The notes beneath the pieces were generated by a model, which was not told where the DNA came from, made no database searches, and was given only the letters and a program-made list of their open reading frames with translations. 44,431 bases of DNA from Folioceros fuciformis (Eukaryota): NCBI GenBank assembly GCA_049999805.1, contig JBNGIO010005382.1, positions 44,296 through 88,726 of the forward strand. Direction: 5' to 3'. The position numbers were made by a program, and so were the translations under genes. Shown piece after piece: positions 17,176 to 44,431 of this stretch. Each line of letters starts with the position of its first letter. The first letter of the stretch is position 1.

Positions 17176-17275
17176 NNNNNNNNNNNNNNNNNNNNNNNNN
17201 NNNNNNNNNNNNNNNNNNNNNNNNNNNNNNNNNNNNNNNNNNNNNNNNNNNNNNNNNNNNNNNNNNNNNNNNNNN
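17176..17275. other. Assembly gap (100 N) flanked by GC-rich simple repeats
   Basis: Run of 100 N. Confidence 1.
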
Positions 17276-18134
17276 GCCCAGCCCAGCCCACCAGCCGACG
17301 GCAGCGCGAGCGGAAGCTTTACGCGGATCCGACCGCAAACGCAGATGCAGATGCCTCCGCTGCTGGCCCTTCTTAAAGGCCCCGAATTGGGTGCTGAAAC
17401 CGAGGAATTGGAGCCCCGGTTGTGCGCGCCTTCGTCCTCGCCCTCGCCCCTCATCTGGCCAATTGGCGTCCTCTGCTAGGGTTCAGCCATGTGAGTGCGC
17501 CCTCGCGCTCCTGCCCCCTCCTGCTTTCCTTTGCCTTTGCCTCTGCCTCTGCCTCTGCCTCTTGCCTTGCCTGCCTGCCGCCTGCCTTCCCCAGGCTTCC
17601 TTTCCAAGTGCTGCAGCTGGATTGCGGGTTTTGTGTGGCTCCTTGTGAGTTTTTCGTGGCTTGTTGCTGTGTTTGTTGCCGCTGCTGCCGGGGCAGCTGC
17701 ATTTGCTGGGAGGAGGAATTGGGTTGCCTCCAGCGCTCTATCCCCCCTCCCCTTCTTGCCGCATTTGCTTTGCTGCCGGCCAGGCGGTGCAGTATTATTT
17801 GCTTTGGTGCGTTAGGGGGTTTGAATTCCATTTTGTGGGCGCTCAGGATTACCCGGGTGCAAGATCCCGGCCTGGCCTGGGCCGTCAAGTGGCTGGCGCG
17901 AATCTGGTAAGCTCGTTGGCCTTGGCTTGACTCGGGAGCTCTCCTCTACTTACCTACCTACCTAGCTCGCTTTGTGGCCCGAACTTTGGAATTGGGATTT
18001 CATCTCATTTCAGCCCACTGGCATTTCATTCCATGCCATGGCAATTCCATAGCCAGTAGCAATGGAGGCAGCAGCCATTTGATCTCGTGCTGTTTGTGAT
18101 CCGGAATTGTGAATTGGGTAGCGAGGGCAGGGAC

Positions 18135-20491: not shown

Positions 20492-21880
20492 TCCTCTACG
20501 GAGCTGCACTGGTTTTGAAGATAGACAAGAAACTGCCATGGTCCTCAGCTAGGAACGACCTGGCGAATTTTGCACCCGATATTGTCATGGGTACCCTCAT
20601 TGGCGTAGGTAGTATACTAGGCAAAAGATGCCACAGAGCTGCATATACTGCCTGAGTGTGCAGAACTCAGAGACAATCTCTATGAATATCGACTATCAAA
20701 ATACTTATTTCTCCACGCTTTGAAGTCACGTACCGTAAGAGGTGCTCTCGTCCGGACACCTATTTGAAGCATGAAAAATTCTTGCCTCTAGGTCACCAAG
20801 ATGAGCGCCAGCCGCGGGGCCCCTGTACTGTCTGCCCTATCCAGCCCTACTTGCGTCCTGGGCAGAAAGCACAAGCCAGTCCTCGTCGGCAGTGCCCCGT
20901 AACCTTGAGCACATGCTTGGTTTTCTCAGCGAGCCAACCAGCACGCAAGGGGTGGCACACGCAGCCTCTTACTCCTCCCTCCGACCAAGAGGACAATGAC
21001 TGCAACTGGCGAAAACCCTAAACCCCTGAACACGCCGTGAAAACCCTGATGACAGTCCAACAGCCCTGACAGCAGATCCAAGCGACCTGTTTACGACGCC
21101 CTCCCGTCACACCTACGGTGAACTCCTCCCTCCCGACTCCTCCTCCCTCCCTGCTTGGAGAGGATGATGCTTGGAACCCTTGCGGCTAGGGCTACTGCTA
21201 CCACTACCGCTACCGCTCCCGCTCCCGCTCGATAGCTGCCGTGTATTGCAGGATCTGATTGAGGGCCAGCAGCACAGCCAATTCCTGCTCTCCCTTATCG
21301 TCCATAGCCAGCCAGGCTTGCACAACCACCACCACCACCTGACAAACCATGGCTGCTAGGGTCGCAATCTGCCGCTGTTGAAGTCGCTTCTTCCGCCTCA
21401 TTGCCACGCAATCAAGGTGCAATTGCAGAATGCAGATGCAGCTTCCGAGCATCCCAGGAACAAAGCCGCAAAACCCACACAACCTTGATGCACGGACAAC
21501 AGAAAAGCGGGGACTCGCACCTGCCTTCACCTCACACAGTAAGTGTCATCTTCAGTGGGATGAGACCTACGTGTGAACCACCCACAGTCTACCTACCTCG
21601 CTGCGCATCTCATCTCTTCCTACATATTCGGTAAATCAGTATCGTTTTTCCAATCATAACTCCGTTTCTAAATTTTTTATAGCTATTATATAACTAGTGG
21701 ACAAAACTTGATATAAAGATATTGGTTTGAGATTTTTTAACGCACATACAACATGTGAGGAGACGTTATATTACATCCTTTCTTCCAGCCAGATTATCTC
21801 TTTGAAATCATTCCTTAAAATCAAAGATAATATTTTTATTCAATATATATTTAATTCATAAAAATAATTTAATATGTTTT

Positions 21881-23022: not shown

Positions 23023-26000
23023 ATGGGGAAACAAGGGCGTGGGAGACAAAAGAGGTCGGTTATGGTTACCCAGGGAATTTATTACTGCGGTTTTCACTTT
23101 TTAACTGGGGTGAGTGATATATGAATGACATGTGTGGGGATGCCTTGAAATTGAGAATCGACAGTACCTGGCGGTGTGAGGGCTGGGCTGTGAGAGCGCG
23201 CTGTGCTAGCCTCGGTAATTATGTATGCCGAGGGTACAGATTTCAGATGATCATGTTCTTGGATGGTGTGCTTAAGTGACCTAGGGTTTAAGATGCACAC
23301 TGCAGACCTGGGTGCTCACCCTTGGAAATTGCACTTCCTCACAGGAAGAACACAATGCGTGTTCCGAATGCAGATGCCTCGGATCGCCTTGGCAGTGGTG
23401 ACCCCAGCCCCACCAGGCACGCATTCTGCTCAAGCTGCCGGAAGCTGGCTGGGGTTTACGCCGTCTCGTGCTGTCCCTTGACTGGGTGTCGTCTGCTGCT
23501 TGGTGGTGCAGGTCTAAGAGGAGGCGGGTGGCGCTCGGTGCTCCGGACCCATCTTCTGCTGGTTCCTATTTTTGCCCCCTTTTTCCGACGGTGTTCTGAA
23601 TTTTGCGAATTTTAGGAGTTTGGTGCATTTGAGTTTTCTGGATTCAGGCTGCCAGCTGGATTGAAGTGGGAATTCCTTGTCTCCTGCAGCAGCCGGAGAG
23701 GGGAAAAGGGCCCTGTTTCACTGTAATTACTGCGGGAGGGATATTTCTGGCAACATCAGAGTCAAGTGTGCACAATGCAACGATTTCGATCTGTGTCTCG
23801 AGTGCTTTTCCGTTGGGGTGGAGCTCACTCCACACAAGAATAATCATGCCTATCGAGTTATTGTGAGTTCATGGTCTGCTTGGATGCTGCTGTTTCTGGT
23901 GCTGTGCCTGTCCTTGGCTGCTAGTCTGTTCTGAATCTGCACGTGGCAGGATAATTTGTCCTTTCCTCTCATCAGTCCAGATTGGATGGCTGATGAAGAA
24001 ATGCTGCTTCTGGAGGTAACTCCTCAGCTGTGCCCAGGGTGATTCTCTGCTTTCAGCCATGAAATTTTGGCTCCAGTTTTCATGGAGTTTGTGTTTGACA
24101 GCGGTTGTGTAACTTGGGTTTGCAGGGAGTGGAAATGTATGGGTTGGGAAACTGGGCAGAAGTTGCAGAGCATGTTGGGGTGAAAACCGCGGGAGAGTGT
24201 TATGAGCACTACATGGCTGCATATATGGATTCTCCGTTTGCCCCGCTGCCCGTAAGCCTCACCGAGTCTTCTATCCTTGTCATGTGTTTAGACCGGGGTC
24301 AAACCAGGAGTGAGTGCAGAACTGGGATTCTGACGTTTGTTTCGTTGGGCTCTTACAGGATTTAAGCCACCTGGCCGGTAAGACTAAATCTGATCTCTTG
24401 GCACTGGCCAAGACGATAGCGGACGGGAAGAGGGGTACGTCATTGGTGCTCTTTCTCGGTGTACTCTGAGAACCGGTTGCTTCATGCATTGAACTGATTT
24501 GTGACCTGTGCAGGCTTCCCTACCGTCAATGACGGCCTTAAAATGGTCAAGCAGGAGCCAAGCATTTCACCTGCGAGAGGAAGGTGAGAAGCTGCGGTTC
24601 TGCTGTTGTTGTCTTGGCTACAGGCGACTTCTGTCAGTGTCTGTCTTTTGTAAAAGTGCCCATTGCAGAGCAGAGTGCATCTTTCTGATTTCCATATGTG
24701 ATATTAAGGGTGGGCCATGCCTTTCCAGGATGGATGAGGGCAAAGACCGTGATGTGTCTGCAGACAGGCGCTCGCCCTCGACCAGTTCAAAAGGTATTGT
24801 CCGTCCACTAGTGATGTCTGCCGCACCATGGCACTGTTGAGAGAGTTAAGAGTATGAACGTGTCCTGTGAGAGGAAGTATGCATTGAGACAGAGGTGCAG
24901 CATCCATGATCGTAGACCAGTATTGCTTTTGGGCTTCCAAGAGTGGGGAAGAGAAGTTTTCTGTTTGAACTCTTCCGGACTCATACTCACTGTGTGAATA
25001 GCAGGACTGAAAGATGAAAAGCCTCTGTTCAAAGTCATGTCAAAGCAGGATGATGGAGGAGAAGGTATCGGTGGCCCAGCATCTCATGATCTTGGTGCAC
25101 CCAAGGGCACAGTAGCTGCAGCTAGGAAGACTGGTGGTGGTCAGACTAGAGAAAACTCCGAGGGAGCTACTGGGGTTTCTGAGGGTATGTACCGTCAAGA
25201 CGTGGACTTGAATCGCAAGGTTTGCAACGTGGAGGCTGGAAGGATTCATGTCTCGTTTGCTGTTGACCTGTAGATGGTGCCCATAGCAATCGGAGTCTTG
25301 GGGTGAAGAAGCCGAAGCCCTCAGCTGAGGATATCAAACCTGGAATCAATGGGATTGATCAAAGTGGCTACAATGCAAAACGTGATGAATTCGACACAGA
25401 GTATGACAATGATGCAGAAGGCCCTCTGTCTGAGATGGACTTCAAAGAGACAGATACCGAAACTGACCGCGAACTCAAGATCCGCATGCTGAATATCTAC
25501 AATGCAAGGTGATGACACTGATGGGAATTATGTTGCCTGTCGATCATTCAGTTAAGTGGTTTTCATACAATTTTTTTTGGCATGAGACCAACGGACCTCT
25601 CCATCTTGATTGCAGAGCCCTAAGTGTGCTGTGTCTGTTTCAGGCTTGATGAGCGGAAGCGGCGCAAGGAGTTTATCCTGTCCAGAGGTCTGTTGAATGT
25701 CAAAGCCCAACAAGCTCTAGACCGAAAGAGGTCCAAGGAAGAGCGGGAGCTGCACAATCGTGCGAAGGTTTTCATGCGATATCACTCTCAGGAAGATCAT
25801 GATAGCTTGCTTGAGGGGCTGTTAAAAGAACGGAGGCTGCGACAAAGAATCGAGGAGTTGCAGGTTAGAGACGCTCCGCATAACTCGGTGCGTCCAGTAC
25901 GTTGTCGTTGTTTTCCAGTGTTAATCGCCGAGAAACGCCAACATTTCTCACGACATACCTTTACCCCTTCGTTCAGGAACTGAGAAGGGCTGGGTGCCAG

Positions 26001-26629: not shown

Positions 26630-27137
26630 CATCGTGTCTGGACCCCATGTACCATTTCCATCCTTTGTACATTAATTCATTGCACGAATTATCGTGCCCA
26701 AACTGTTGGCCCAAGCCAGAATGACAACGAGCATTCTGTATCGAGTGTACGCGACTAACCAGACAGCATACGCACTGCATATCCAGCCGGTTGGCCTCCA
26801 AGGGGAGCCAGCAAGCCCAAACGATTCCATTCCCGCGTTACATTTTGCTTTCGCTTTCTGGTCTGGCGTCGAGATATGGATCGATGCTTGTGGTACCGGT
26901 ATACCGAATTATGTCGTGGGCGAGCCAGAGCTGATTCTGGAGCCCCGGCCTAGTGGACGCTTTGGAGAGGCATTGTACAATGTTCCACTGTCAGATGCTT
27001 AGGGAGACGAAGGCACTGTGGCTGAGTGAAGTCTTACAACACAGTTTTGGCAGCTTCAGAGGATTTTAAAGCTTCAGCATACCATTTCAAAGCGAGGCAC
27101 TTGGTTGGTGAAATTCTTCTTGGAAGTAGATTTGATC

Positions 27138-29098
27138 ATGGCGCTTCACCAATGTTCACAGGAATGGCCAGGTTTGCTTGCTTTGGAATTTGTGCCCGGA
27201 CCTGCTCTCAGTTGTGTACTATCAGAGTGACGTCTGTACACCTACTTCTTACTTACTGGTAAATGTTGCTGATTGTGGCCCGCAGGTGGGCATGAGGTAG
27301 CCCACAGCAACGGTATAGATGGAAATTTGGACGTGCACATTCCCGATCCAACTATTCTCATAGCTTTGCAGCCACCTCCTGGGGAAGGTGAACCTAGGTT
27401 GGATCTCGTGGTGTTGAGTGATTCTGAATCAGAATACGAGTATTCCAGCGAAGACGAGGTTGACAGGGACATTGTAGGGGAATCAGATAATGAAAGTGGA
27501 CAGAAGGACAACGATGAACATGGCAATAGGGACAGCGCAATCTTGGTAACCAATGAATGTAGAATTTGTGCAGCTTGTGCGTTCGGTTATGAGGATGAGG
27601 AATTGTTTCTTACTCTTCGACATTCAGACAACTGTAACACTGATGGAGACAGACGAGGAGATTCAGACAGAAATTGATGCTCTGTTGCAGCATGAAAGCG
27701 AGGTGATATCTGAATTTCCTCGCAGCAAACATAATTTGACAGTGCAAAGTGTGACCGTCAGTTGCACAGGGCTACTCTTCGTCAAAAAATCTTACTCTAT
27801 CGTCGTACATATTTCCTGCAGGCGGCGGAACTGCAGGAGATGCTGGAAGAGGAGTCATTGGCGTGTGTTAGATGTGAAGCGAGATTGGAGCTGTCTGAAA
27901 AATTTTCAGATCCTGACGAGGTGAGTTATGATTTTCAGCAGCAAGACTGGGCGTCCAAAGTGCAGGACTTGATGTCGACGGTGCCGGGTCCACCTGCACA
28001 GCGCAGCTGGCTGCAGCAACTGAGCAGGAGATGTACAACTATCAAAACATTTTGGAGGAAGATCTGCTCGAAGTTGAAGAGTACATCATCGGCATACAGG
28101 TAACTCCAGCGGTCTGATCGAATATCTCACACCTAAGTCTACACGCGCGTGTGCAATAAATGTGCCTCCACTGCATCTCGGTCCAGGGCGCGGGAAAATA
28201 AAGAAATGCTGAATTGCTTGTCGTGCAGGAACGGTTGGACGCTGCTGGGATCAGCCTGCCCGCCATCTATAAGGAGATTGAAAAGCTGGCTCCAGATCAC
28301 TGCAAAACGGATGCATGGAGGAAGAGGACGCACTGGGCTGGCTTGCAGGAAACATCGGAGGTGCTCAGTATCATTAAGGACGCAGACTCTGAGTTGGAGA
28401 AGAGCAGACCTGTCACAAGGTAAGTGCATGCATTGGCAAGACCTGAAACCTACCTGGAAGACTGTTCATAATGTGGCCAGTTTCTTGAGAGAAATAAGTA
28501 GTTGGCAATGCCCAAAGTAACATGAGCGTGTGTCGTGGATCGATCAGGCGTCGTGGGAGGACCTTCGAAGCTGGAGCCAGCGGAATGCTTGCTAGAAAGT
28601 TTGACCTATCCACCAGTGCAGATGCTCCAGTGGATCAGGGATGGCAAGCATTTGATGCTCGAACGGAGGCTGATGCAGATGCTAAGATATACGCGGCATC
28701 CACACCACAGGAAGCAGCTCAAGCACTGGGGTCCGAGGTTCCAGCAGCTGAAGAGGTTCGTTGCAATTTGTGATCACCTTGATCAAACATAATCGTTAAG
28801 ACGGGTGTGAGCTCACAGCTTAGTCTCGGGTAGGTGGAGGAGATTTCGGAATGGGAACACGCGGCAGGACCATTCTCTGAAGCCCTGAAGAATGAGGGAG
28901 AAAACGGTCTTACAAAGACACAGCGAGAGAACCTCAAGAAGGTACTCCACAATTTTTGAATCCGGGTCCGTTACTTTGGTAATTGCCTCACATCACAAAC
29001 GTGTAAAGAATCTCTCTTTGCAGATAGACGAGCAGAACGACGCTTGCAAGTACACAACAGTGAAGCCGAGAAAACGCAAAGGCGAATGGCTGCAGTAA
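27138..29098 (+). CDS. ATRX N-terminal-region-only protein, copy A, ~380 aa, 9 exons
   Basis: Exons 27138-27171, 27286-27545, 27628-27702, 27822-27920, 28007-28099, 28229-28419, 28548-28755, 28834-28941, 29024-29098. Translation EIDALLQHESEAAELQEMLEEESL...ERLDAAGISLPAIYKEIE...CKTDAWRKRTHWAG...RPVTRRRGRTFEAGASGML...YAASTPQEAA...EEVEEI is collinear with the plant ATRX/CHR20 N-terminus as I recall it. Confidence 0.82.
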
Positions 29099-29099
29099 G

Positions 29100-29203
29100 C
29101 AGGTTTATGTGATTGTAGAACAACTTCTTCGAACAGGTTTCTGTGGTTGTAGAACAACCTCTGAGAACAGGTTTATGTGACTCTTGAACAACCTCTGAGA
29201 GTT
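29100..29203. repeat. ~34-bp tandem repeat, 3 copies, right after the copy A stop
   Basis: caggttt(a/c)tgtg....gaacaac(c/t)tct recurs three times. Confidence 0.8.
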
Positions 29204-29227
29204 CGAGGCTTCTGGAAGAAAGATTTG

Positions 29228-29428
29228 CTTGAGAGGCCAAGGTGTTGCAGGCGGAGAAGAATTTGAAGGTTCTGGAGCCGAGAGGGTGGATAAGTCACTC
29301 CACAACATAGACATTCAAATCCAACCAAAGCTGGGCACGTTTCGTGCTTGCTAGATTTAGTAGAGCTAGCAATTTCAAGCTTTCCTACAGTCCAATGCAA
29401 TGCTTATTGGGTTTCAAGATGTACCCAG
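29228..29428 (-). pseudogene. Decayed duplicate of one exon plus flanking intron of the downstream U-box gene
   Basis: The minus strand encodes SDLSTLSAPEPSNSSPPATPWPLK versus SNLSILPAPEPSNSSPEATPRPPK at 34421-34350. The splice acceptor is mutated (gttgcag to gttgtgg). Intron similarity continues (gctagcaatt...atgtaccca). Confidence 0.8.
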
Positions 29429-29979
29429 GTACATTTTCGCATTCAAATATCTCTATCTTCGCATTCGGATATTTTTATCTTCTCAACCTCTGGAGCTGGC
29501 TGAAGTCAGTTTTTCTTTTGACCTCTCATAGCGGAGCTGTACCACATATTAATGGGATATAAGAAATAAAATGATAGGAAGACTGAATATTGAAATATCA
29601 TATATAATACCTATCTCTATTTATAGAGATATATATGTAGATAATAGAGAGATCATATCTCTCTTTGTGTATAGGTTTATATGATATTTAAAATTCAAAT
29701 TTCTCTAATAGAGATATAATATAGTGAACCCTAACTGAAATAGGGTTGAGATGTGCTTGCTGAAAGACGGCGTATCCATACCTCTTCTTCGTGTCTACTC
29801 TCTCGAAACAGTCGCAAAAGTGATAGTCGGGCATACTTAGTCTTAGTTTCTAGTCTCTTCGACAGTTTCAAAAGCGATAGTAGGGAGACGCGATAGTAGG
29901 GAGATGCAATAGTAGGGATACTGGACACATTTGCAAAAGTGATAGTAGGGATACTCGATACAATTTGCAAAAGCGATAG

Positions 29980-30723
29980 TAGTTGGGATTGCTGTATTCT
30001 TCTCTTTGTGTCTGTATCAGTTACTTATGTCTACTCTCTTTATAGATTTTGCACACAGTAAGAATGGGATGAAGTAACGATTGCTGTATTCTTCTCTTTG
30101 TGTCTACTCTGCTCATAGATTTTGCACATAGTACAAATGCGATGAGGTAATGATTGATGTATTCGCCTCTTTGTGTCTACTCTGCTGATAAATTTTGCAC
30201 AGTGTACAAATGTGATGAGGTAATGATTGCTGTATTCGNNNNNNNNNNNNNNNNNNNNNNNNNNNNNNNNNNNNNNNNNNNNNNNNNNNNNNNNNNNNNN
30301 NNNNNNNNNNNNNNNNNNNNNNNNNNNNNNNNNNNNNNTACAAATGTGATGAGGTAATGATTGCTGTATTCGCCTCTTTGTGTCTGTACCAGTTCTGTGT
30401 GTCTACTCTGCTAATAGATTTTGCACACGGTACAAATGTGATGAGGTAATGATTGCTGTATTCGCCTCTTTGTGTCTGTACCAGTTCTGTGTGTCTACTC
30501 TGCTAATAGATTTTGCACACGGTACAAATGTGATGAGGTAATGATTGCTGTATTCGCCTCTTTGTGTCTATACCAGTTCTTTGTGTCTACTCTGCACATA
30601 AATTTTGCACACACTACAGTTGGGATGAGGTAATGATTGTTGTATTCTTCTCTTTGTGTGTACCAGTTCTTTGAGTCAACCCTTTTGATAGATTTTGCAC
30701 ACAATACAGTTGGGATGAGGTAA
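29980..30723. repeat. Satellite array with ~92-bp and ~73-bp unit variants, interrupted by a 100-N gap (30239-30338)
   Basis: tacaaatgtgatgaggtaatgattgctgtattcgcctctttgtgtct... at 30339, 30431 and 30523 (period 92) and at 30132/30205 (period 73). Units decay at both edges. Confidence 0.93.
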
Positions 30724-30936
30724 CTGGCTTCAATTCTGTAGATGGTAGAGTGGAATGGGACATTCCAAATTCCAATATTCGTAATCGCATGATTTGCTAA
30801 AGCAAGATTCGCTGAGGTGATATTCACAATGTTATACCTTCTAGAGAAGATGGAGATCACGGCAATCTCATGGTGATAAAAGTCACTTAGGAATTAGACT
30901 TAAAGTATTCCAGTGGAAAACAGGTTGCTTAAGGAC

Positions 30937-33283
30937 ATGGAAGAAAGATTGGATAGTAAACTTGGAGAGAAGGATAGCGGAAAACTTGAAGAGAAGAAAC
31001 TTGAAGTGGCTAATGGTGTGGTATTCACTGACTCAAAGGTTTATGTTAAAGAAGAGGTTGACGAGCACATGCAAGGAAAGTCAGATGCTGAATGTGGAGA
31101 GAGGGACAGTGAAATACATATTGTAGAGGAGGAGATGCAAGAGGCTGATCCCATTATTTATTTAGGTTGGCAGCCACTTCCTCGGGGAGGTGCAGGCAAA
31201 TTGGATGGTGTGGTGTTAAGTGACTCAAAGCTTGGTACTGAAGAAGAGGTTGACAAGCACATGAAAGGAATACCAGATGCTGAACGTGGAGAGAGGGACA
31301 GCGAAATGCATATTGTAGAGGAGAAGAGACAAGAGGCTGATCCCATTATTTATGTAGGTTGGCAGCCACCTCTTCATGAAGGTGAAGCTAAAGTGTACTG
31401 TGTGGTGTTAAGTGACTCAAGGCTTGATAATGAAGAAGAGGTTGACGAGCACATGAAAGGAATTCCGGATGCTGAACATGGAGAGAGTGACGGCGAAATA
31501 CATGTGGCGAAGAAGAGTAAAAACTACGGGGCTAATCCACCTCCATGGGAAGGTGAAGCTAAGCTGGATAATAACCTGGATAATGGCATGGATATCGTGA
31601 TAGGTGATTCTGACTCATACTCTGAGTATTCCTCGCAAGGTTATGTTTCTGAGGACATGGAAGTGAGTTCAGATGATAAACATCTGGACAGAGAGGTGAT
31701 CCATAAATCATGCATAATTTGCGCAGCTTGAGCGTTTGGGGACAAGGTATATAGGTCTCTGACGCTTGGATTTCAATATGCAGACGGCAAGACCAATACA
31801 GACTGAGAGGGAGGCTCAGGAAGAAGTTGATGATCTGTTGGATCTTGAAATCCAGGTCATATTTGAATTCCATTTCAGCAAATATAATTGGACCGTGTGA
31901 ATTGTGACCACCGTTGTCCCTCCTACTCAATCGTTTTACAAATTTTGTGTAGGCGGCGAATCTGCTGGAGGATCTGGAAGATGAGTCCTTGTCTTGTCTT
32001 AGAAGTGAATGCAGATTGGAGCTATCTGAAAAAATCGCAGATTCTGATGAGGTGAGATATGATTCTCCACAGTGACACCACTAGTTGTCTGACGTGCTTA
32101 ATTTGATGTCGAGGGTGGTGTGTCTACCTGCACCCACGCAGCTGGATGCAGCAACTGAGGAGGAGATGGATATTTATAAAACCATTGTGAATGAACACCT
32201 GCTTAAAGTTCAAGAAGACATTGCCCGCTCACAGGTATGGCCAGTGGCCTGGTTGAGAATCTCATGTCTACCTCTATGGGTGCGTGTGCAATGCATGGGC
32301 CTTCACTGGATCACAGCCAAGCTGTGCTAACGAGCGAAAAGAATGAATGCTGAGCTGAGCTGAGTTGCTTGTCTGCAGGAACGGTTGCAAGCTGCTCATA
32401 TCAGCTTGCCCCACACGTACAAGAAGATTGAGAAGCTGGTTCGAAGTCGCTGCAAAACGGATGCATGGAAAAACAGGGCGCACTGGGCTGGCTCGCAAGT
32501 AACACCGGAGGTACTCAGTATCATTAACGGCGCAGAGTCTGAGTTGGAGAAGACCAGACCCGTGATGAGGTAAGTGCTCGCATTTGCAACAACTAGAACC
32601 TAGGCTGAAAGCGTCTCATGTGGTCAGTTTCTTGAGAGCTACAAGCAGTTGGCAATGCACAATGTAACAAGAGCGTGTGTGGTGCATCGATCAGGCTTCA
32701 TGGGAGAACCATGGAAGCTGGAGCCAGCGGAATGCTTGCCAAGAAGTTCCATCTACCCAATTGTGCACATGCTACACTGGATCAGGGATGGCTAGAATTT
32801 TATGTTCGAATGGAGACTGATGTGGATGCTAGGGTATACGCGGCATGCACACCACAGGAGGCAATTCAAGTACTGGAGTCCAAAATTCCTGCTGCCGACA
32901 TTTCAACTGTTAATGAGGTTTGTTAAAATTTGCGAATTAAGAATTTTCAGGCTGTGATACAATTGTTCACGAGGTTCTCACCGCCACGTCCCTCGTTGTT
33001 GCAGGACATCGCGAGATTGGAAGAAGTAGCAGCATCTTCCTCTGACGCCATGACGAACAAGGGAGGCATCACAAATATACGGCGAGAGAACATCAAGAAG
33101 GTATTCTAACTTTGAATTCGGGTCCCGCGCCATGAAACCCTTGACATGTATATAATCTCTATTTTACAGTTTGACGAACAGCACGAGCTCGCAACTGTGG
33201 AGAAAAATGGAACCAAAGAAACGGAGCGGCAAAACGCAATGGCATCTGTGAACAATCCTGTCAAGCCCTCACAAAGCTCCTGA
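30937..33283 (+). CDS. ATRX N-terminal-region-only protein, copy B, ~548 aa, 8 exons, with an N-terminal 64-aa acidic repeat
   Basis: Exons 30937-31695, 31784-31855, 31953-32051, 32142-32234, 32379-32569, 32695-32917, 33005-33100, 33170-33283. Same intron positions as copy A. Motifs CKTDAWKNRAHWAGSQVT, RLHGRTMEAGASGMLAKK, YAACTPQEA. Confidence 0.82.
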
Positions 33284-33899
33284 ATCTGAAACCTCCTACA
33301 GTTAGGGGCTTCCAGAGGCTTCAAGGATAGTGACTAGAATAGCCGACAGGGAACGCAGTCGGAGGCTATTTTGAATGCGCTAAACAGCTACGTGGAATCC
33401 GTATGTATGTAGGACAGAAACTTGTTGCAAAAATCCAGCCTTTACACTTTCAAGAACGACGCTCCTGCAACCTGAGCTTTCTTTGCCCAGCTGCAAAATG
33501 AGAAACGAAAGAAGATGATCAATAACGCGTACGATACTTCCCGACCTATTGCAGTTGGCAAACCTCATGTCTTACGCATCAAGAAATATGCCCAGGGACC
33601 TCCTCACACAAGCAGTCATGGATTGGATGGACCAACAACTACACCAGATAAGCAAAACTACGATGGGTTATTCTATAGACCGTAGCCTGAAATATAGTAA
33701 TCAGACAATAGTAAGGAACAAGCAGCCGCGGTGAAATCACCTCATATATACATATGAGAAGAAGAACATGTACACTATTGCCGCAAGAAATTACTCTCCA
33801 AAAGACATTCCTTCCAAGGCCTGCATATAAAGTACATAATTGGCATAACGAGTTACTCTCTTGTATATTTCTTGTTTCTACATATGCCCTGGTAACGAG

Positions 33900-36800
33900 T
33901 CACAAGTCTGCCGAGTGCGCTTGTCTATCTTCGCTGACCCCATTCTTCAACTCGGTTGTTGCCTTTGCGAGAGAACGGTACTGTAATCTCAAACTCTCCG
34001 AGTTGTCCACCATTGTCACTAAGTACCTGAAGGTAATCACAACCAGGATTAGCACAGACATGAACGGCACGCGAAGCCAGAAGGGCCGCCCATTCGAAAA
34101 CAGAAAGCGCCACGTACCAGCCATTTAGACACTTATTTGTCACAACAGCTTCTCGTCCAACATATTTCCCTGCGGTCCTTTTGTTGCCCTGCATATTGTA
34201 CGGTAATGACGAAGTCAGAATCAAGGAGTAAATCCAACCACATATGAATCATACATACACTACAATCAAAGCTAATCACGTCATCAACCGAGAAGCCAAA
34301 TCACCTTTATCATAACCCTTTCATTCACGGCAAAAGGGTACTGAACACCCTTGGGAGGCCGAGGTGTTGCCTCTGGAGAAGAATTTGAGGGTTCTGGAGC
34401 TGGCAGAATGGATAAGTTACTCTGCAACACCAACAGACAAATTCAAGGTTAGACATCTTCCCACTTGCCGCCGTGGTCATTCGAGACATTCTACAAGGGC
34501 TAGCAATTCAGTCCTGAAGTCCAGTAGATCTTCTACTTTAGATGCAACATGTACCCATCAGAGGAACTTCACACATCTCTACCTTGTTCACTCGCTTGGC
34601 TTTAGGTTCACTAATATCTGCAATTTCTTTTTTTCTTTTAACCCCTCTTAGACCAGTTGTAACTTGAGCGTGTCGATTTCTCTCCTCCCGTCTGAAAGCT
34701 CTAGCAGCTGCTTGCAACGCTGTAGCACGAGCAGGCAGACTATGGTTACAAAAATATTAAAATTGACACCCCACTGAAATGAGGTAGGCAGGGTGTACAA
34801 TCTGGTCTCACCATAGTTTGGAACAAGAGAATTCACGTCCACACCAGCTCCACATGAGATACAAACCCTCTGCAAAAACTCTCTCAGCTTAGATTTCCAT
34901 GAGTGAACTTACTCCTTACAGACGTAACTCGGGTATTTCATATTCATGCCACGCCTAATCCATAACACATACACGGGAGGAGGTCTTACACTTTCGTATA
35001 CTCTTTGAAGAGTTGCACCTCCAAATGAATGGCCACAGGGAGCCACCTTAGCATCTTCTAGCAGAGCCCCACTGAAAACCAAGCAAGTGGAAAATCATCG
35101 ACCCCTCTAGCATGCTAATTTTCAAGAGGCACCTTGCAAAGAGGGTACCTGCCTCAACCAAGGCAGCAAAAACAGAAGGGTACTGGGAAAAGAAGCATTA
35201 AATAATTACTTACGTCAGCGGATCAGACAGTACATTTCTCAGCGAAGGTTCTGAGTTGCCTCTGGCTGGCTCCTAAACAACAAAGGCACATTTCAGACTT
35301 GACTTAGAAAAATGGATGCAGAGCTTAGTATCATCCCAATTGACAGCATAAGATGCAGCAAATTCTCATCCCCCTCTACAACATGCATCCATCTCATCGG
35401 AGTCCAAGATTAAAGGCTGCCAATTACCAGAGCTTTGTCTGCACCATTTCCCATCAATGCCTCTGCTGCCTTCAAGCCTTCCATAAACTGACTAACTAAG
35501 ACGGGAGAAAACGTCTCAGACACAGGATGTCCTGCCTCCGCAAGCGAAGTGCAATCAATCATTGCAGAGTCCCGTGGTACCATCCGGAATGTCATAGAAA
35601 TCCTGTAATAATGACCGTAACATAAGCTAGAGGGCTAGGGACAGAAAACAAAGATCACAGCACGGAAACGAACGAAACTGATTAACTTCAAACACTGTTT
35701 GCTTCACAGAAATCACATACAAAGTCTTTTACCAAGCTATTGACCACCGCGTGACGAGGAACACACCTTCCGACAGGACCGGAGGTAGAAGGGTTTGATG
35801 AGGGCACTGGTACGACACGGAAGGCTGAAGACTTTCGAAGGCCAGCAGTCGCTTGATGGAGGGCCCTGCCAACAAGCAGCAGCAGATCACCTGGACCGAG
35901 TCCACTGTCTGCTAAGTACCACCGACCACTAGAATCACACACCTGCAAATTGGAGAGCAGCATATTAGACATCCCCAACCGCATGGCCCCTCTTACGTCT
36001 TACGGAAAGAGGATTCAGTTCTACTGAAAAGAATCTTGACAAGACAAAAGATTATGTCATACGACCGACCATGCGAATCTAGCTCTTACAACCTACAAAG
36101 ATTAAACTTACCTGCAAACCCGCAGAATCGGATGCAATTAACCTTAGCAGCCCTTTCTCCACATCCTGGCCATGAAATGCTTCGCCTCCAACATGGGTCT
36201 TACCAAGGGAAGAAGTGAAATGCGCAGCCGCAGTCAAAACTGAATGGGACACTTCGCCAGGCACCAGCGGGGAGTCATCTAACAGCGGACAGAATGCGCT
36301 GAAGAAGAAGCAAGGCAAAATTTAAGACAAGTATTGCTGTAGCCATCAAGAGCAGCAAGTGAGAAGTAAAAAGTGATGAAGCGCTGTGATGACGTCTTAC
36401 TCGCTTCGAAGTTGAAGATGCCTGGCAATGGCACTCAAACAAGCTCTAGATGCTTTTCCGAGGCATCTAAACGCCTCAGGCATGCAAGGTGGTGGAGGGT
36501 CAGAGCCTTCACCTGCAGAACTTCTGCGCAGGTGCACAACGTTTCAGTCAAAAGGAAAGGCGACTGCCAAACGAGGTCAGGCCACGAAGGTCAGATGCCT
36601 GATAGCAGCAACATGCCCCAACCAAGCATCCAGAGGGTATTGTGGAAACGTACCTCCCAGCTCGATAACAGTAAAAGGATTGAGCCGCAGTCGTCAAGTA
36701 ACCAGAAGATTTACCCTGGTCCGACGCATGCCAGGGATGCGAAGCCTCCACACCCTGCGGCCTGCTTCTAAAATACAACCTGGAGGACTCCAGGGCACAC

Positions 36801-37303
36801 CTCATGAAAGCTGCGTCTTCCCCGCTGAGCTCTATAATGGCTGCATTGTTTTTGGCAAGAGACTGAGAGAGCATCTCCACCGCTCTGGTGTAGCCCGGCG
36901 AAGCCACCCCGTCCTCGGGGATCATGTCCGCGAGCTTCACCCTGCTCGGTATGTCCGACGGACTAGCCAAGATAGCAGGCTGGTGCGGCCCTTGTCCAGA
37001 GAGCACGCCCCCCGCCGCATTAGCAGTCGCATTGTTGTGACCCGGACCCATGAAAGGGGCGGCACGCGGGGTAGAGCCTCCCGCGGCCGCCTGCTGCGAC
37101 GCCACGGGCAGAGCTAGAGAGAGCGAAGAAGCTCCAAGGCCCGGTGACGCCGCCGGCACGGCAGCAGCAGCAGCAGCAGCAACAGCACGCCCCGCCGGCT
37201 GCTGAGTCGCGAAAGGAGGAGCGGCAGCCCCGGTGGCCGGTCTGGTGGATGGGCCCGGAGGCGGAGGAGGCATGGAAGGCATCTGCATGGCCATGGCCGT
37301 CAT
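33900..37303 (-). CDS. 2OG-Fe(II) oxygenase-like fold + U-box/RING-like + PUB62/63-type C-terminal domain protein, 12 exons
   Basis: Exons about 37303-36654, 36523-36401, 36298-36112, 35942-35767, 35602-35427, 35272-35214, 35071-34990, 34869-34812, 34719-34583, 34421-34305, 34187-34118, 34026-33900. Motifs RVKLADMIPEDG, EKGLLRLIASDSAGLQVCD, LSDPLSGALLEDA...CGHSFG...CISC...LVPNYAL, GVQYPF...GNKRT...CLNGWYL...LRLQYRSL. Confidence 0.88.
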
Positions 37304-39421
37304 GCTTGATGGATGTGAAACAGGGTATCCTGTCCCTGACTCAGCTGACTCCTCTCAGGCGTCACTCCGGGGGCAGCAACGCCCGAGTCCGGGTCCAACC
37401 ACCTGCAAAAAAGCGACTACTTCTGGAACAAGCGCGCACGCAACCACTGCTCATCCTGGTCCCCACAGCGCGCGCACGGAATCAAGAATCCTACCCTCGT
37501 CTCCCTCCCGCAGTCCAAGAATTGAGCAAGAAAAGCGCCATGGCTGCAGAGACGCACGCAATTTTACTACGCCACCACCACAGCACAGCACATCACACGA
37601 CACCAAACCAGAGCAGAGCAGAGCAGACTGGACCAGCTGAACCCTATCAGGTAGGAAGACACACACAAACGCGCAGCCCGTCGTGCATCGTGCCGGGCAT
37701 GCCTTCCGATCCCCCTTAGCCGCGCAAGAACCAACCTACAGACCACTCCCTACCCTCCCTCCAAAAATCCCTCCTCGCCGTCCCTCTCCTTCCCTCCACT
37801 TTCCAATTCCCCTACCACCTACTCCAGCAGCTCACTCCTCCACCATTCTCCTCCTCTCACTCCTCCTCCCTCCTAGGCGCCTCCAAGTCACAAATCAGCT
37901 TCACATTCTCCAATGCGTCTTCTTCCTCCTTCAGGCCTACCTTCTCCTCCCAGGCAGCCAAACTCCCTATTTCCGCTCCAATTGCTGCAGACCGATCCCG
38001 CGCGACGTTCTACACGCGATCCAAGGCCTGCTCCACGCAGAACAACAATCCCGTCCCTCCCGCTCCAGCGTGCGAATTATTTTCCTGTCCGCTGCGCTGT
38101 GCTGCGCTTCTCCTTGCCCTCCTCCTTTCAGCGCCTTCTTCCACTCTTGACTGGCTTGCTTGCCAGCTAGCTAGCTGGCCAGCTTGCTTCCCGGCTGCTT
38201 CTGGTCCGCCGCAAAGGTGCCTCCTGCTCCCCGTTCCCCTGCCCGCCTTCCTTTCTCGACCGCGTCTCGCCTGCGACGTGACTCGCGACTCGCGAGGTAG
38301 TCAGAGCGCGGAACCCCGTTCCCTGGCAGCGCAGCGCAGCTCCCGTCGCGCGCAGAAACCCGTTCCGTCCTAGTCCACGGTCTCGGCGGGGGGGGGCTTG
38401 CCGGGCCCCACGGTCGCCTTTATCTCCGCTAGGTTAGGTTTCCTTAAATGTGTTGGTAGGTGATTTAGGCAGGCGCGGTGGAATGAGGTTTACATTTGAG
38501 GCCATGCCATGCCGGTAACTTAGGATGCAGCACATGCGATGCGAATGCGCGGACAGCTGGATGCCATGTAATATGTATGGGAGTGAGCAGGTTCACGTGC
38601 ATCGCATGAGGCAGCCATCATGGTGGGGGCCATATGGACCCATGACACTCACACATGCTTCACGCTGCCCTTCTTTCCTACCTTCTTTCCGTTTCCGTTT
38701 CCGTTCCCCGTTCCCCGTTCCCCGTTTCCACAGCCTCAGCCCACATCACATTATCCCCCTCCTTCATGACATGACCAACCACCCACGCAACGTGTCATGT
38801 ATGTACATATCCACACCCATTCCCGTCACATTCCCATGTCATACATATCTCCTTTTTGGTTCGGTTGGCTTAGATTAGCTTCACCTTCGTCTGCTTTGCT
38901 TTGGGCCGCACGTAACGTAACGTAACGTAACTACTTTTGCTTTGCATTGGGAAGCATGTAGCGTAAAGTAGTTTATGGATGTAAATTGCCGTCAGAATTT
39001 CGTTTCTCGAGACGAAGACTTTATTGTGAACGACAAAATGAAAACCCCTCTACCACTCGACCGAAGGAGGACACGTCCCGTGAAGGGCTGGCCAGCCTGA
39101 CGAAATTAGCAATTGCCCGGGGGCGTGAGATTCTCTGTAAAAAGGCATGAACTTTTAATCTTCTGTGGTCCCTTGCGGGTTAAATCCGTCTCTCTTCCTC
39201 TTCCTCTTCCCTTCCCTTTGTAAAGTTTCGTCCGTGGACGGACCGTGATATGGCGAACCTGGAAACCTGAATGCCACTCCCACACTGTGGGGTTGGAGAG
39301 CGTGGGACGGATTCCTCCGCACGTAGGATGTGCTTGTCACAGAGTGCAAGGTCTGTTTGTCACGCGAAATCGTGATCAGGTGACGGCCGGCTTGCCCACT
39401 GGAACGTGGAGGCGAGACATT

Positions 39422-40498
39422 ATGGATTGCGGTTGCAAACAGGCCGCCCCTGTGCAGGCTATGTGTCCGTCACCACTGGCCGTGGTGCGGCCAGTGTGTC
39501 TTGCCTCTTCCACCTGCGCCTTTTCTGCACCCCGTGTCTACAGGCGAAGAGCTTCTTGCCGGAGTGTGCGTCCGCGGAGTGGCTCACCTTCGGAAGGGGG
39601 GAACAGGCCGCCTCGACGGCCTGGACTCCCTTCAGGACTGAAAGTTTCAGGTCAGACGGCGACGGTGGAGCGGGGGCCGCGGGTATGGCAGACAGTAGGC
39701 TGGCTGGAAACGGCACTTGCAACAGGTTTGATGCTCATAGCTGGTGACGCGCGTGGAGAGGAAGCGGCGGCAGACTCTGGCGGTGCGGGTGAAGATGCGG
39801 GAAGTGTGGTGGAAGCGGGAGGCGGATCGGAGCAGGAGGGAGACTCTGGTAGTGCGGGTGTAGACTCTGGAAATGCGGTGGAAGCGGGAAGCGAGTCCGC
39901 GCAGGATGTGGTTGAGGTCGTTCAAGATGTCGACTCTGGTAGTGCGATTGTAGACTCTGGTAGTGCGATTGTAGACTCTGGTAGTGCGGTGGTAGATTCG
40001 GGAAATGCGGTGGAAGCGGCAAGCGGACCCGCGCAGGATGTGTTTGAGACAGTTCAAGACGTAGGCTCGGATGCTCCACTCGTAGGCGCAGAAAGTACGG
40101 CGGAAGTGGGAAGCGGACCCGCGCAATATACGTTCGAGATCATTCAAGGCGGACAGTCTGGTAGTGGGGCTGTAGACTCTGGAAGTGCGGTGGAAGCGGC
40201 GAGTGGATCCGCACAGGTCATTCAGGACGTTGATACCGGTGACCTGTTTGGCTCTCTAGCAACAAGCACTATTAGCCTCCTGTTCGTCTTGGCTGCCGTT
40301 GGCCTCGTTGTCGTCACAATTGGCGTGGTCTATCTGTCCATCGCGGATTATCGCGAGAAGAAGGATGCCGAAAAGGACAGGGAAAGTAGGTCGCCTGTCA
40401 ATGTGCAAACCGACGACGCAGGTACCTCGGTCACTGGACGAGGCAAAGGATTCGGGAAGAAGCCAGAAAAGGTCTCCAAGGAAAAGACCCGAAAGTAG
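39422..40498 (+). CDS. Predicted thylakoid single-pass membrane protein with an acidic repeat region, 358 aa, single exon
   Basis: Ser/Arg-rich transit-like N-terminus; hydrophobic signal TALATGLMLIAGDARG|EE; VDSGSA repeats; TM helix ISLLFVLAAVGLVVVTIGVVYLSI; basic tail with GKGFG. Confidence 0.72.
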   Translation: MDCGCKQAAPVQAMCPSPLAVVRPVCLASSTCAFSAPRVYRRRASCRSVRPRSGSPSEGGNRPPRRPGLPSGLKVSGQTATVERGPRVWQTVGWLETALATGLMLIAGDARGEEAAADSGGAGEDAGSVVEAGGGSEQEGDSGSAGVDSGNAVEAGSESAQDVVEVVQDVDSGSAIVDSGSAIVDSGSAVVDSGNAVEAASGPAQDVFETVQDVGSDAPLVGAESTAEVGSGPAQYTFEIIQGGQSGSGAVDSGSAVEAASGSAQVIQDVDTGDLFGSLATSTISLLFVLAAVGLVVVTIGVVYLSIADYREKKDAEKDRESRSPVNVQTDDAGTSVTGRGKGFGKKPEKVSKEKTRK

Positions 40499-41068
40499 TC
40501 AGCTTGCACATGTAGACAATTGGGCAGTTTTTCAAGTTCCAACCAGCATCGCAATAATTCCGTGCACAAAATAGCCATGGCTGCCATAAATCCTCATGCC
40601 CTCATAGTACTCCAGTCCTTTGTCCACCATGCCGGCATATTATTCAATGCACACAGACCAATTGAATCCTGCATGCGCAGCAAGAATGGCACCAAGTCCA
40701 GAAGACCTTTCACAAACCGAGACACTATCTGGCTTCGGATCATCTGTACAGGACAGCCACCAGCATGGCACTGAAAAATGACAACCAATCAAGAGGCTCT
40801 GCCTAAGCCTCAATCATTCACCCAGCAAGCGGTTTTAACTAGATTACACTCCCATAGTGACAAATCTACATGCCACCTTCAACGACAGATACCCAACGCA
40901 TGGATTCCTAACTAGCTACTAGTACCTTCTAAGTACCTCAACCATTACCTCCACCTGGATCCACAAGGAAGGAGAAAAAGGAAACAGGCAATCGTGTTCA
41001 TAGTCATCTATCAAGGAGGAGAACCACGTATCAGCCCTCACAAACAGTATGATAGGCACCCTGTTTAG

Positions 41069-44390: not shown

Positions 44391-44431
44391 GTCGCTCCCG
44401 CTTCCTTCCTGCTCCTGCTCCTGCTCAAGCT

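What the first reader, a model, noticed from the sequence alone, without database searches (positions are those of the whole stretch)
27138..33283. Tandem pair of intact genes encoding only the plant-specific ATRX N-terminus (no ADD finger, no SNF2 helicase)
Seen: two same-strand paralogs, hidden from the ORF track by short exons. They share intron positions and exon sizes (99/93/191 nt are identical), have intact GT-AG sites and show no frameshift or premature stop despite heavy divergence. Both end just after the RENxKK exon. Known (from memory): the translation follows the Arabidopsis ATRX/CHR20 N-terminus (AAEAQEALEKESL; EQLDGAGIELPKLY; CYTEAWKQRAHWVG; RPVRKRHGKLLEEGASGFL; YLASTP; PGVNEVEEI). 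In ATRX that region precedes the ADD and SNF2 domains and has been implicated in LHP1 binding. Inference: this may be a lineage-specific family of helicase-less ATRX derivatives under selection, acting as decoys, dominant-negative modulators or adaptors for ATRX partners (H3.3 deposition, LHP1/Polycomb).
Basis: partly seen in the sequence, partly recalled or inferred. Interest (0 to 1): 0.8.

Follow-up and report, generated by a model that had tools for sequence, protein, structure and literature searches.

The report
Tandem helicase-less ATRX N-terminus genes
A land-plant genome carries two neighbouring, transcribed and correctly spliced genes that encode only the plant-specific front end of the chromatin remodeller ATRX, without its zinc finger or motor; they look like partial gene duplicates, one conservative and one fast-evolving, and their function is untested.

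Summary
Copy A (27138-29098, 9 exons, 380 aa) and copy B (30937-33283, 8 exons, 548 aa) are open spliced frames with GT-AG at 15 of 15 introns and identical 99/93/191-nt exons. Contigs of a run that holds spliced copies show all 7 B introns and 4 of 8 A introns exactly as modelled; two DNA runs show none.

A profile of one 63-aa exon finds plant ATRX/CHR20 at E down to 1e-17. In full-length relatives the match lies upstream of the ADD and SNF2 domains. Full-length ATRX queries hit only the N-terminal part in the 44 kb window.

- B's last exon is frameshifted relative to A.
- Pairwise dN/dS is about 1 (0.85-1.25), so "under selection" is supported only as maintenance of open frames.
- B evolves about four times faster than A.

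Best reading: a 5' partial duplicate of ATRX, cut at a former exon-intron junction and then duplicated in tandem. A decoy or adaptor role is inference only.

I could not test whether the genome has a full-length ATRX. The closest known analogue is the mammalian helicase-less isoform ATRXt. I rate this a new variant of a known kind, of moderate interest.

The parts
27138..27171 (+). Copy A exon 1 (provisional start codon)
   Evidence: ATG, GT donor. Sequence only; no transcript support.
27286..27545 (+). Copy A exon 2: acidic region with a SIM-like hydrophobic-acidic/serine motif (residues 50-60)
   Evidence: Homologous to the repeat unit of B exon 1 (27345-27514 matches 31147-31304 at 68%).
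27628..28099 (+). Copy A exons 3-5 (27628-27702, 27822-27920, 28007-28099): the helical-hairpin part of the ATRX N-module
   Evidence: The equivalent region of an angiosperm relative folds as two long helices with pLDDT above 90. The intron 5 joint 28099|28229 is in run X3.
28229..28419 (+). Copy A exon 6, 191 nt: the best-conserved ATRX-N block
   Evidence: E down to 6.7e-17; 31-35 of 62 residues identical to the best hits.
28548..28941 (+). Copy A exons 7-8 (28548-28755, 28834-28941), ending in RENLKK
   Evidence: Joints 28755|28834 and 28941|29024 are in run X3.
29024..29098 (+). Copy A exon 9: basic tail KPRKRKGEWLQ. The TAA stop (29096-29098) overlaps a possible CA|GTAAGC donor.
   Evidence: The old-frame stop of B lies at the same aligned position.
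29100..29200 (.). 34-nt x 3 tandem repeat directly after A's stop
29228..29324 (.). Fragment paralogous (78%) to 34350-34446, downstream of B
   Evidence: This suggests the duplicated unit reached into the neighbouring gene's 3' region.
29862..30723 (.). Satellite arrays (units of 33/34, 73 and 92 nt) on both sides of the 100-N gap at 30239-30338
   Evidence: The 73-nt and 92-nt units share sequence, so the gap most likely hides more satellite (inference).
30709..30936 (+). 5' untranslated part of B's transcript contig. It begins inside the last satellite unit.
   Evidence: record 20, starts at 30709.
30937..31695 (+). Copy B exon 1: acidic region with a 192-nt (64-aa) in-frame repeat, 2.6 copies, each carrying a SIM-like motif
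   Evidence: No Pfam family and no Atlas look-alike.
31784..33100 (+). Copy B exons 2-7 (31784-31855, 31953-32051, 32142-32234, 32379-32569, 32695-32917, 33005-33100): ATRX N-module, ending in RENIKK
   Evidence: All joints are in one X3 contig.
33170..33283 (+). Copy B exon 8: frameshifted relative to A, new 31-aa tail, TGA stop at 33281-33283
   Evidence: No letter differences or indels in X1, X2 or X3 (tables 3 and 4).
33928..34248 (-). C-terminal domain of a convergent PUB62/63-like U-box gene, which bounds B on its 3' side
   Evidence: PF23112, E 1.4e-12.

Best explanation
What is shown. A and B are two tandem, transcribed, spliced genes. They descend from the 5' part of the plant ATRX/CHR20 gene by DNA-level partial duplication, with intron positions kept. 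Each encodes an acidic N-terminal stretch followed by the plant-type ATRX N-module. Neither has an ADD finger or an SNF2 motor.

What is inferred about origin. The truncated gene existed before the A/B duplication:
- Both copies share a deletion of the motif before the ASTP block and many shared changes.
- A's stop and the old-frame stop of B sit at the same aligned position, on a GT that looks like the former donor site. The frame therefore ends where an ATRX intron once began.

After duplication A stayed conservative. B evolved about four times faster, expanded a 64-aa acidic repeat and lost the basic tail through a frameshift.

Likely mode of action (inference, about 0.3). These are non-catalytic nuclear proteins that present the ATRX N-module, and SIM-like acidic motifs, to the module's normal partners. 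They would then compete with or bridge to full-length ATRX complexes, much as the mammalian helicase-less isoform ATRXt shares partners with full-length ATRX.
For: - Gene models and splice sites.
- Spliced contigs with exactly these joints, absent from the two DNA runs.
- Homology to ATRX/CHR20, with the match upstream of ADD and SNF2: (ADD in 6 of 7 and SNF2 in 7 of 7 long hits scanned).
- A collinear alignment of about 260 residues.
- No ADD, SNF2 or Helicase_C similarity anywhere in the window.
- Exon borders of exons 6 and 7 coincide with the points where single-exon ORF proteins of other plants leave the homologous sequence: (P0005, P0007).
- A and B are sisters (UFBoot 98), with branch lengths 0.18 and 0.71.
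- Polarised differences: 22 on B, 7 on A, 80 ambiguous (p=0.008). Shared derived states at 24 of 92 conserved columns.
- 48 of 51 hits score higher with A than with B.
- Introns align at about 70%, so this is a DNA duplication and not a retrocopy.
- Same-position stops and the frameshift in B.
- Open frames are unlikely under neutrality. P(no stop in 282 codons) is 0.03 at 10% change, 0.006 at 15% and 0.0007 at 23%.
- B is bounded by a convergent U-box gene.
- ATRXt precedent: abstract of PMC13074095.
Against: - dN/dS between A and B is not different from 1, and the same holds within B's repeats. Amino-acid-level constraint is therefore not shown.
- B carries a frameshifted tail.
- A's stop overlaps a good GTAAG donor, and a 100-N gap lies 1.1 kb downstream. 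No transcript contig that I saw reaches A's stop.
- The B contig runs on 3288 letters past 33500. Its 3' end is therefore not defined, although the stop at 33281 lies in uninterrupted contig sequence.
- Whether the genome has a full-length ATRX is unknown.
- A's branch is no longer than those of canonical ATRX N-modules, so paralogy to a separate full-length gene is assumed and not shown.
- No partner binding was tested.
Confidence: 0.6

Rival explanations
1. Transcribed relics. One copy (most likely B) or both are decaying partial duplicates with no protein function. They are still transcribed and spliced because promoter and splice sites survive.
For: - dN/dS about 1 between A and B and within B's repeats.
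- Exon identity (65-82%) is barely above intron identity (about 70%).
- B has a frameshifted last exon and has lost the basic tail.
- B's branch is four times longer than A's.
Against: - Both frames are open over 380 and 548 codons despite about 23% nucleotide divergence. Neutral simulation gives P=0.0007-0.03 for the shared 282 codons alone.
- All exon length differences are multiples of 3.
- B's repeat expansion is in frame with no indels.
- A keeps 31-35 of 62 residues of the best-conserved block.
- Spliced transcripts exist for both copies.
Confidence: 0.25
2. Copy A is simply the 5' end of the organism's real full-length ATRX. It would splice from the GTAAGC at 29095 into ADD and helicase exons that are missing from the assembly (the 30239-30338 gap, or a misjoin). 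Only B would be a truncated duplicate.
For: - A strong GTAAG donor overlaps A's stop.
- There is a gap of unknown size downstream.
- A is as conserved as orthologous N-modules.
- I saw no transcript contig across A's stop.
Against: - The gap is flanked on both sides by the same satellite family, so it most likely hides more repeats.
- B's transcript starts at 30709, directly after the array.
- Introns here are 69-144 nt, against the 1.1 kb or more that this reading needs.
- The old-frame stop of B lies at the same aligned position as A's stop.
- No joint from 29094/29095 is listed in X3.
- tblastn finds no ADD or SNF2 in the remaining 14 kb downstream.
Confidence: 0.08
3. Gene fission. In this lineage the N-module is encoded apart from an N-less ATRX and works with it in trans. 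A would then be the functional orthologue of the module, not a spare copy.
For: - A's total branch (0.64+0.18) is not longer than those of canonical N-modules.
- N-module-only gene models without any Pfam domain also appear in Chlorokybus (540 aa) and Spirogloea (448 aa).
Against: - Those algal and other short models may be split or partial annotations. This was not checked.
- All full-length land-plant ATRX proteins seen carry the module in cis: the best 120 of 497 hits are 1297-1933 aa.
- The pairwise dN/dS of about 1 is odd for an essential sole copy.
Confidence: 0.07

Closest known systems
Plant ATRX / CHROMATIN REMODELING 20 (CHR20), e.g. Nymphaea XP_031481996.1, Ceratopteris KAH7426145.1, Riccia fluitans KAL2624343.1
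   Same: The N-terminal module of about 260 residues is collinear with these proteins, including the blocks around the 191-nt exon. A is 38-45% identical and B 33-37% over 276 trimmed columns. Exon borders of exons 6 and 7 agree.
   Different: There is no ADD zinc finger, SNF2 ATPase or Helicase_C. The conserved motif before the ASTP block is deleted in both copies. The SIM-like acidic motif lies upstream of the module here, whereas the four full-length land-plant ATRX proteins scanned and the short Chlorokybus model have it between the module and ADD, or after the module.
Mammalian ATRXt, the helicase-less ATRX isoform made by intron retention (Levesque and Picketts 2026, PMC13074095; abstract read)
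   Same: Both are ATRX forms that lack the whole SNF2 domain, with a frame that ends in what is, or was, an intron. ATRXt still binds ATRX partners (DAXX, HP1alpha) and has activity without remodelling. This is the model for how A and B could work.
   Different: ATRXt is an isoform of the ATRX gene itself and keeps the ADD domain. A and B are separate genes, lack ADD, and consist of a plant-specific module that animals do not have.
Short 'CHR20-like' and unnamed gene models with the N-module in other plants: Brassica (770-774 aa, N-module plus Helicase_C only), Eruca (501 aa), Carica papaya (378 aa), Eleusine (424 aa), Selaginella (306 and 472 aa), Spirogloea (448 aa), Chlorokybus (540 aa)
   Same: They carry the ATRX N-module without ADD and SNF2-N in database annotations. 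The papaya model ends at the same point as copy A, after the basic stretch.
   Different: None is closer than about 55% in the best block. I could not check whether they are real genes, split models or assembly fragments. None is known to me as a tandem, transcript-supported pair.

Membership tests
Plant ATRX/CHR20 SNF2 remodeller | Plant-type N-terminal module upstream of ADD | tested here: met
   (E to 6.7e-17).
Plant ATRX/CHR20 SNF2 remodeller | ADD (GATA-like plus PHD) zinc finger | tested here: not met
   no hit at E<0.01 to ADD residues of 4 full-length queries. The single weak hit (E 0.031, at 20785-21009) lies upstream of A in non-finger sequence; no Pfam family in 6 exon translations.
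Plant ATRX/CHR20 SNF2 remodeller | SNF2 ATPase and Helicase_C lobes | tested here: not met
   no hit in 44431 bases on either strand; no such ORF seen.
ATRXt-type helicase-less isoform | Made from the full-length ATRX gene by intron retention or early polyadenylation | tested here: inconclusive
   A's stop overlaps a GTAAGC donor. No downstream ATRX exons are in the window, and A's 3' end was not seen in transcripts.
ATRXt-type helicase-less isoform | Retains the ADD domain | tested here: not met
Unprocessed pseudogene (dead partial duplicate) | Disabling stops or frameshifts | tested here: not met
   No in-frame stop in 380 or 548 codons. One frameshift, confined to B's last exon, changes the tail and does not truncate the module.
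Unprocessed pseudogene (dead partial duplicate) | dN/dS near 1 | tested here: met
   (0.85-1.25; bootstrap 0.60-1.29).
Unprocessed pseudogene (dead partial duplicate) | No transcription or splicing | tested here: not met
   10 GT..AG joints in X3 contigs and none in the DNA runs.
SUMO-interacting-motif (SIM) proteins | Hydrophobic core followed by an acidic/serine run that binds SUMO | tested here: inconclusive
   A pattern scan finds one such motif in A and one strict plus three looser ones in B's repeats. Short motifs arise by chance, and binding is not testable here.

The most novel reading that the evidence does not exclude
The plant-specific ATRX N-module is an autonomous unit that evolution has released from the remodeller. 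Copy A would be a conserved trans-acting regulator (decoy or adaptor) of ATRX partner complexes such as LHP1 or PKL-DNAJ-ATRX. Copy B, with its expanded acidic SIM-like repeats, new tail and dN/dS at or above 1, would be under diversifying selection, for example in a conflict over H3.3/ATRX-targeted repeats. A bolder variant is that the module began as a stand-alone gene in streptophyte algae (the Chlorokybus and Spirogloea models) and was fused to ATRX only later.
Probability: 0.15. Interest if true: 0.65.

Novelty: new variant of a known kind. Interest (0 to 1): 0.38.

Why it matters
The N-terminal third of plant ATRX is conserved from streptophyte algae to angiosperms. It has no Pfam family and no match among solved structures. 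From what I could read, its function is known only through one paper title that links plant-specific domains to LHP1.

Natural genes that express this module alone, one conservative and one divergent, are ready-made separation-of-function reagents. They could show which ATRX partners bind the module, and whether a motor-less form modulates H3.3 deposition or Polycomb targets, as the mammalian ATRXt isoform suggests for animals.

If they prove to be relics, the locus is an ordinary partial tandem duplication.

Tried and rejected
- Word-indexed protein search with exon 6, 'longer' lengths: 62 candidates, none scored. The exhaustive HMMER search then found the family.
- Third protein search, with alignment A2, meant to list short N-only proteins: it returned only full-length angiosperm ATRX (best 120 of 497) and was uninformative for that purpose.
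- Pfam on 6 exon translations: nothing apart from a sub-threshold Cauli_AT match, E 0.14.
- ESM Atlas on B exon 1: no usable hit.
- AlphaFold2 of an angiosperm N-module (P0027 with a 31-row alignment): mean pLDDT 69.7, pTM 0.36, a confident helical hairpin only. Foldseek against the PDB: 0 of 92 matches at E<=0.001. No fold assignment results.
- Complex prediction, two copies of the N-module (P0027 residues 45-335): no verdict, score 0.00. This is not evidence either way.
- The look-up of sequencing runs: no RNA holder listed on record. X3 is labelled RNA only as a guess.
- In one search, X3 has no cover over 26900-28004 (A's exons 1-4) or over 29331-29772. I draw nothing from these blanks, and nothing from contig depths.
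- The 30-letter X3 loose end at 29278 is not in the window at 3 or fewer mismatches. Its first 23 letters resemble 34401-34423 by eye. Its origin is unresolved.
- Whole-genome search: no genome is held.
- Earlier scan notes: nothing relevant.
- Wang et al. 2018 and Duc et al. 2017 are not held, so I could not read which ATRX region binds LHP1.
- Literature searches for helicase-less plant ATRX paralogues listed no such report. Supplements are closed.
Per-branch dN/dS therefore remains a rough inference from branch lengths.

Full report
THE OBSERVATION

I built both gene models from the window sequence.
- Copy A has nine exons between 27138 and 29098: 34, 260, 75, 99, 93, 191, 208, 108 and 75 nt, giving 380 aa.
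- Copy B has eight exons between 30937 and 33283: 759, 72, 99, 93, 191, 223, 96 and 114 nt, giving 548 aa.
- All 15 introns are GT..AG and 69-144 nt long.
- The 99, 93 and 191 nt exons have the same size in both copies, and neither frame has an internal stop.

The two proteins are 56% identical over 276 aligned codons. The DNA aligns at 74% straight through exons and introns, 27657-28751 against 31810-32898. Introns are about 70% identical and exons 65-82%. The pair therefore arose by duplication of genomic DNA, not by retroposition.

TRANSCRIPTS

One public run (X3, coded; labelled RNA only as a guess) held 0.44 of the sampled words of 27100-33300. Two DNA runs of the same organism held 0.90.

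I laid the three runs on 26900-33500.
- X3 contigs show ten joints, all GT..AG and all exactly at my exon borders.
- These cover all seven B introns, in one 5380-nt contig that starts at 30709, and A introns 5, 7 and 8.
- A 13-letter loose end equals the end of A exon 6, which supports intron 6.
- The DNA runs show none of these joints, and no letter or indel differences from the window.

Spliced copies of both genes therefore exist. A's first four introns and its start codon rest on the sequence alone. The B contig runs on 3288 letters beyond 33500. I could not follow it. A convergent gene lies there, so a merged contig is possible.

HOMOLOGY

Pfam finds nothing in six exon translations. A word-indexed search found nothing either.

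An exhaustive HMMER search used a 63-column profile of the 191-nt exon from both copies (alignment A1).
- It found 51 proteins at E<=1e-3 and 28 at E<=1e-10 among 1.84 billion.
- Named hits are CHROMATIN REMODELING 20 / ATRX of Nymphaea, Kingdonia, Ceratopteris and Riccia, and further plant models.
- Of seven long hits scanned, SNF2-rel_dom is present in 7 of 7 and ADD_ATRX in 6 of 7.
- The match lies at residues about 120-310, upstream of ADD (about 420-750) and SNF2.

A MAFFT alignment shows collinear similarity of A and B with the ATRX N-terminus over about 260 residues, from the acidic helix before the first conserved block to the exon ending RENLKK/RENIKK and the basic stretch after it.

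NO FINGER AND NO MOTOR

I ran tblastn against the whole window with four full-length ATRX proteins and five shorter relatives. Every hit at E<1e-3 fell inside copy A or B and within query residues 57-433. The few other hits have E of 0.026 or more. One of them is to ADD residues, at 20785-21009, upstream of A, in sequence that does not look like a zinc finger.

B is bounded on its 3' side by a convergent PUB62/63-like U-box gene (PF23112 at 33928-34248 on the minus strand).

HOW THE FRAMES END

A ends in KPRKRKGEWLQ-stop. The TAA overlaps a CA|GTAAGC that would be a good donor.

B's last exon is 2 nt shorter, net, between the DEQ codons and this tail. The homologous tail, EPKKRSGKTQWHL-stop, is therefore in another frame, and B's used frame runs to a new 31-aa tail.

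A's TAA and B's old-frame TGA sit at the same aligned position, each on a GT (GTAAGC and GTGAAC). My inference is that the common ancestor of A and B already ended there, at what had been an ATRX exon-intron junction. A papaya 'CHR20-like' model leaves the homologous sequence at the same point. That is a hint and not a test.

Both copies also share a deletion of the conserved motif before the ASTP block, and derived states at 24 of 92 conserved columns. This again places the truncated gene before the tandem duplication.

COULD A CONTINUE INTO HIDDEN EXONS?

The 100-N gap (30239-30338) lies inside a satellite. A 73-nt unit lies on one side and a related 92-nt unit on the other. B's transcript contig begins directly after the array. 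No joint from 29094/29095 is listed in X3. Introns here are about ten times shorter than such a splice would need. I put this rival at 0.08. It needs cDNA ends to close.

SELECTION

Pairwise dN/dS between A and B (276 codons):

| Method | dN/dS |
|---|---|
| NG86 | 0.85 (bootstrap 0.60-1.29) |
| LWL85 | 0.91 |
| ML | 1.15 |
| YN00 | 1.25 |

dS is 0.26-0.34, and the core exons 4-7 give 0.74. B's internal 64-aa repeats give 0.94-1.18 for the best pair. Constraint at the amino-acid level is therefore not shown.

Against simple decay stand three points:
- Random substitution of the 282 shared codons leaves no stop in only 3% of trials at 10% change, 0.6% at 15% and 0.07% at 23%.
- All exon length differences are multiples of three.
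- B's 192-nt repeat expanded in frame without indels.

Evolution after the duplication is asymmetric.
- In an IQ-TREE tree (16 rows, with Eleusine dropped because half of its model is not homologous; 276 columns; Q.plant+G4), A and B are sisters (UFBoot 98) on a stem of 0.64. The terminal branches are 0.18 for A and 0.71 for B.
- Differences polarised against 12 embryophyte rows fall 22 on B, 7 on A and 80 ambiguous (p=0.008).
- 48 of 51 database hits score higher with A than with B.

If synonymous change is split equally, this implies roughly omega 0.4 for A and above 1 for B. That is a rough inference only.

A's total branch is not longer than those of canonical N-modules. I therefore cannot show from the tree that A is a paralogue and not the lineage's own module.

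THE PROTEINS

- Both are acidic (22-23% D+E).
- A has one hydrophobic-core-plus-acidic/serine motif of the kind I recall as typical of SUMO-interacting motifs. This is recalled and not tested. B has one strict and three looser copies inside its repeats.
- The four full-length land-plant ATRX proteins scanned carry a comparable motif between the module and ADD, and the short Chlorokybus model carries one after the module. These positions lie beyond the point where A and B end.
- An AlphaFold2 model of an angiosperm protein co-extensive with A (P0027, 31-row alignment) gives a confident long helical hairpin (residues 52-137, pLDDT above 90) followed by less certain helices and a small hairpin. 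Mean pLDDT is 69.7.
- Foldseek finds no PDB match at E<=0.001.

THE ORGANISM

No genome is held. An intronless gamma-SNAP ORF in the window is 76% identical to one unnamed protein and 57-68% to the named and further unnamed plant proteins among the 120 listed; the named ones include gymnosperm, lycophyte, liverwort, fern and angiosperm proteins. The window is therefore from a land plant whose lineage has no named proteins in that collection. A hornwort is my guess, and it is untested.

COMPARISON WITH WHAT IS KNOWN

- Helicase-less ATRX exists in mammals as ATRXt. This isoform is made by intron retention, lacks the whole SNF2 domain, still binds DAXX and HP1alpha, and represses rDNA transcription (abstract of PMC13074095). 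A and B resemble it in logic. They differ in being separate genes, in lacking ADD, and in consisting of a plant-only module.
- In Arabidopsis, ATRX is reported in a stable complex with PKL and DNAJ proteins (bioRxiv 10.64898/2026.08.25.747133, section 5 read).
- ATRX is also reported to interact with LHP1 'through plant-specific domains' (Wang et al. 2018). I saw only the title in reference lists. Neither that paper nor Duc et al. 2017 is held.
- Short N-module-bearing models occur in the annotations of Brassica, Eruca, papaya, Eleusine, Selaginella, Spirogloea and Chlorokybus. I could not tell real genes from split models.
- Six full-text searches listed no report of helicase-less plant ATRX paralogues.

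VERDICT

Its evolutionary reading, helicase-less ATRX derivatives, is well supported. 'Under selection' holds only for frame maintenance. The proposed function remains inference.

This is a new variant of a known kind: a motor-less form of a remodeller, fixed here as a tandem gene pair. It is of moderate interest mainly as a natural handle on the uncharacterised plant ATRX N-module.

Noticed in passing
window 29862-30723 (gap 30239-30338): Satellite arrays with units of 33/34, 73 and 92 nt fill the space between the two genes and flank the N gap. An X3 contig (29802-30233) also holds part of the array, and B's transcript contig starts inside the last unit.
   Followed up: partly
window 29228-29324 and 34350-34446: A 97-nt stretch after copy A is 78% identical to a stretch 1.07 kb after copy B, in the 3' region of the convergent U-box gene. 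The duplicated unit was therefore probably larger than the gene, and A's flank has since lost about 0.9 kb, or B's has gained it.
   Followed up: partly
window 29110-29278: An X3 contig (depth about 10) fits A's 3' flank and then continues for 255 letters that are unlike the window. Those letters begin like 34401-34423 and then look like a minus-strand splice or a third copy elsewhere.
   Followed up: partly
window 33500 onward: The 5380-nt X3 contig that carries all of B continues 3288 letters past 33500. This may be a merge with the convergent PUB62/63-like gene's transcript through overlapping 3' ends.
   Followed up: no
window 3806-4693 (+): An intronless 295-aa gamma-soluble NSF attachment protein ORF. 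The best named relatives are only 57-68% identical.
   Followed up: partly
window 30851-30880: A short upstream ORF (9 codons) lies in B's 5' untranslated region, 57 nt before the start codon (read).
   Followed up: no
proteins P0054 (Chlorokybus, 540 aa) and P0038 (Spirogloea, 448 aa): Streptophyte-algal gene models carry the ATRX N-module with no Pfam domain at all. The module therefore predates land plants and may exist there as a stand-alone or split gene.
   Followed up: partly
proteins P0019 cluster (Brassica, 770-774 aa) and P0043 (Eruca, 501 aa): Brassiceae 'CHR20-like' models keep the N-module, with only Helicase_C (Brassica) or no domain (Eruca). This is a second case of truncated ATRX relatives that keep this module.
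   Followed up: no
window 1-27000 and 35000-44431: Neighbouring genes by Pfam on long ORFs: SecY (2301-2828, minus), GIL1/IRKI-like (6395-7735, plus), RING plus WD40 (18060-19755, plus), ADA2-like (25624-25980, plus) and a VHS-domain gene (43055-43570, minus). A second 100-N gap lies at 17176-17275.
   Followed up: no
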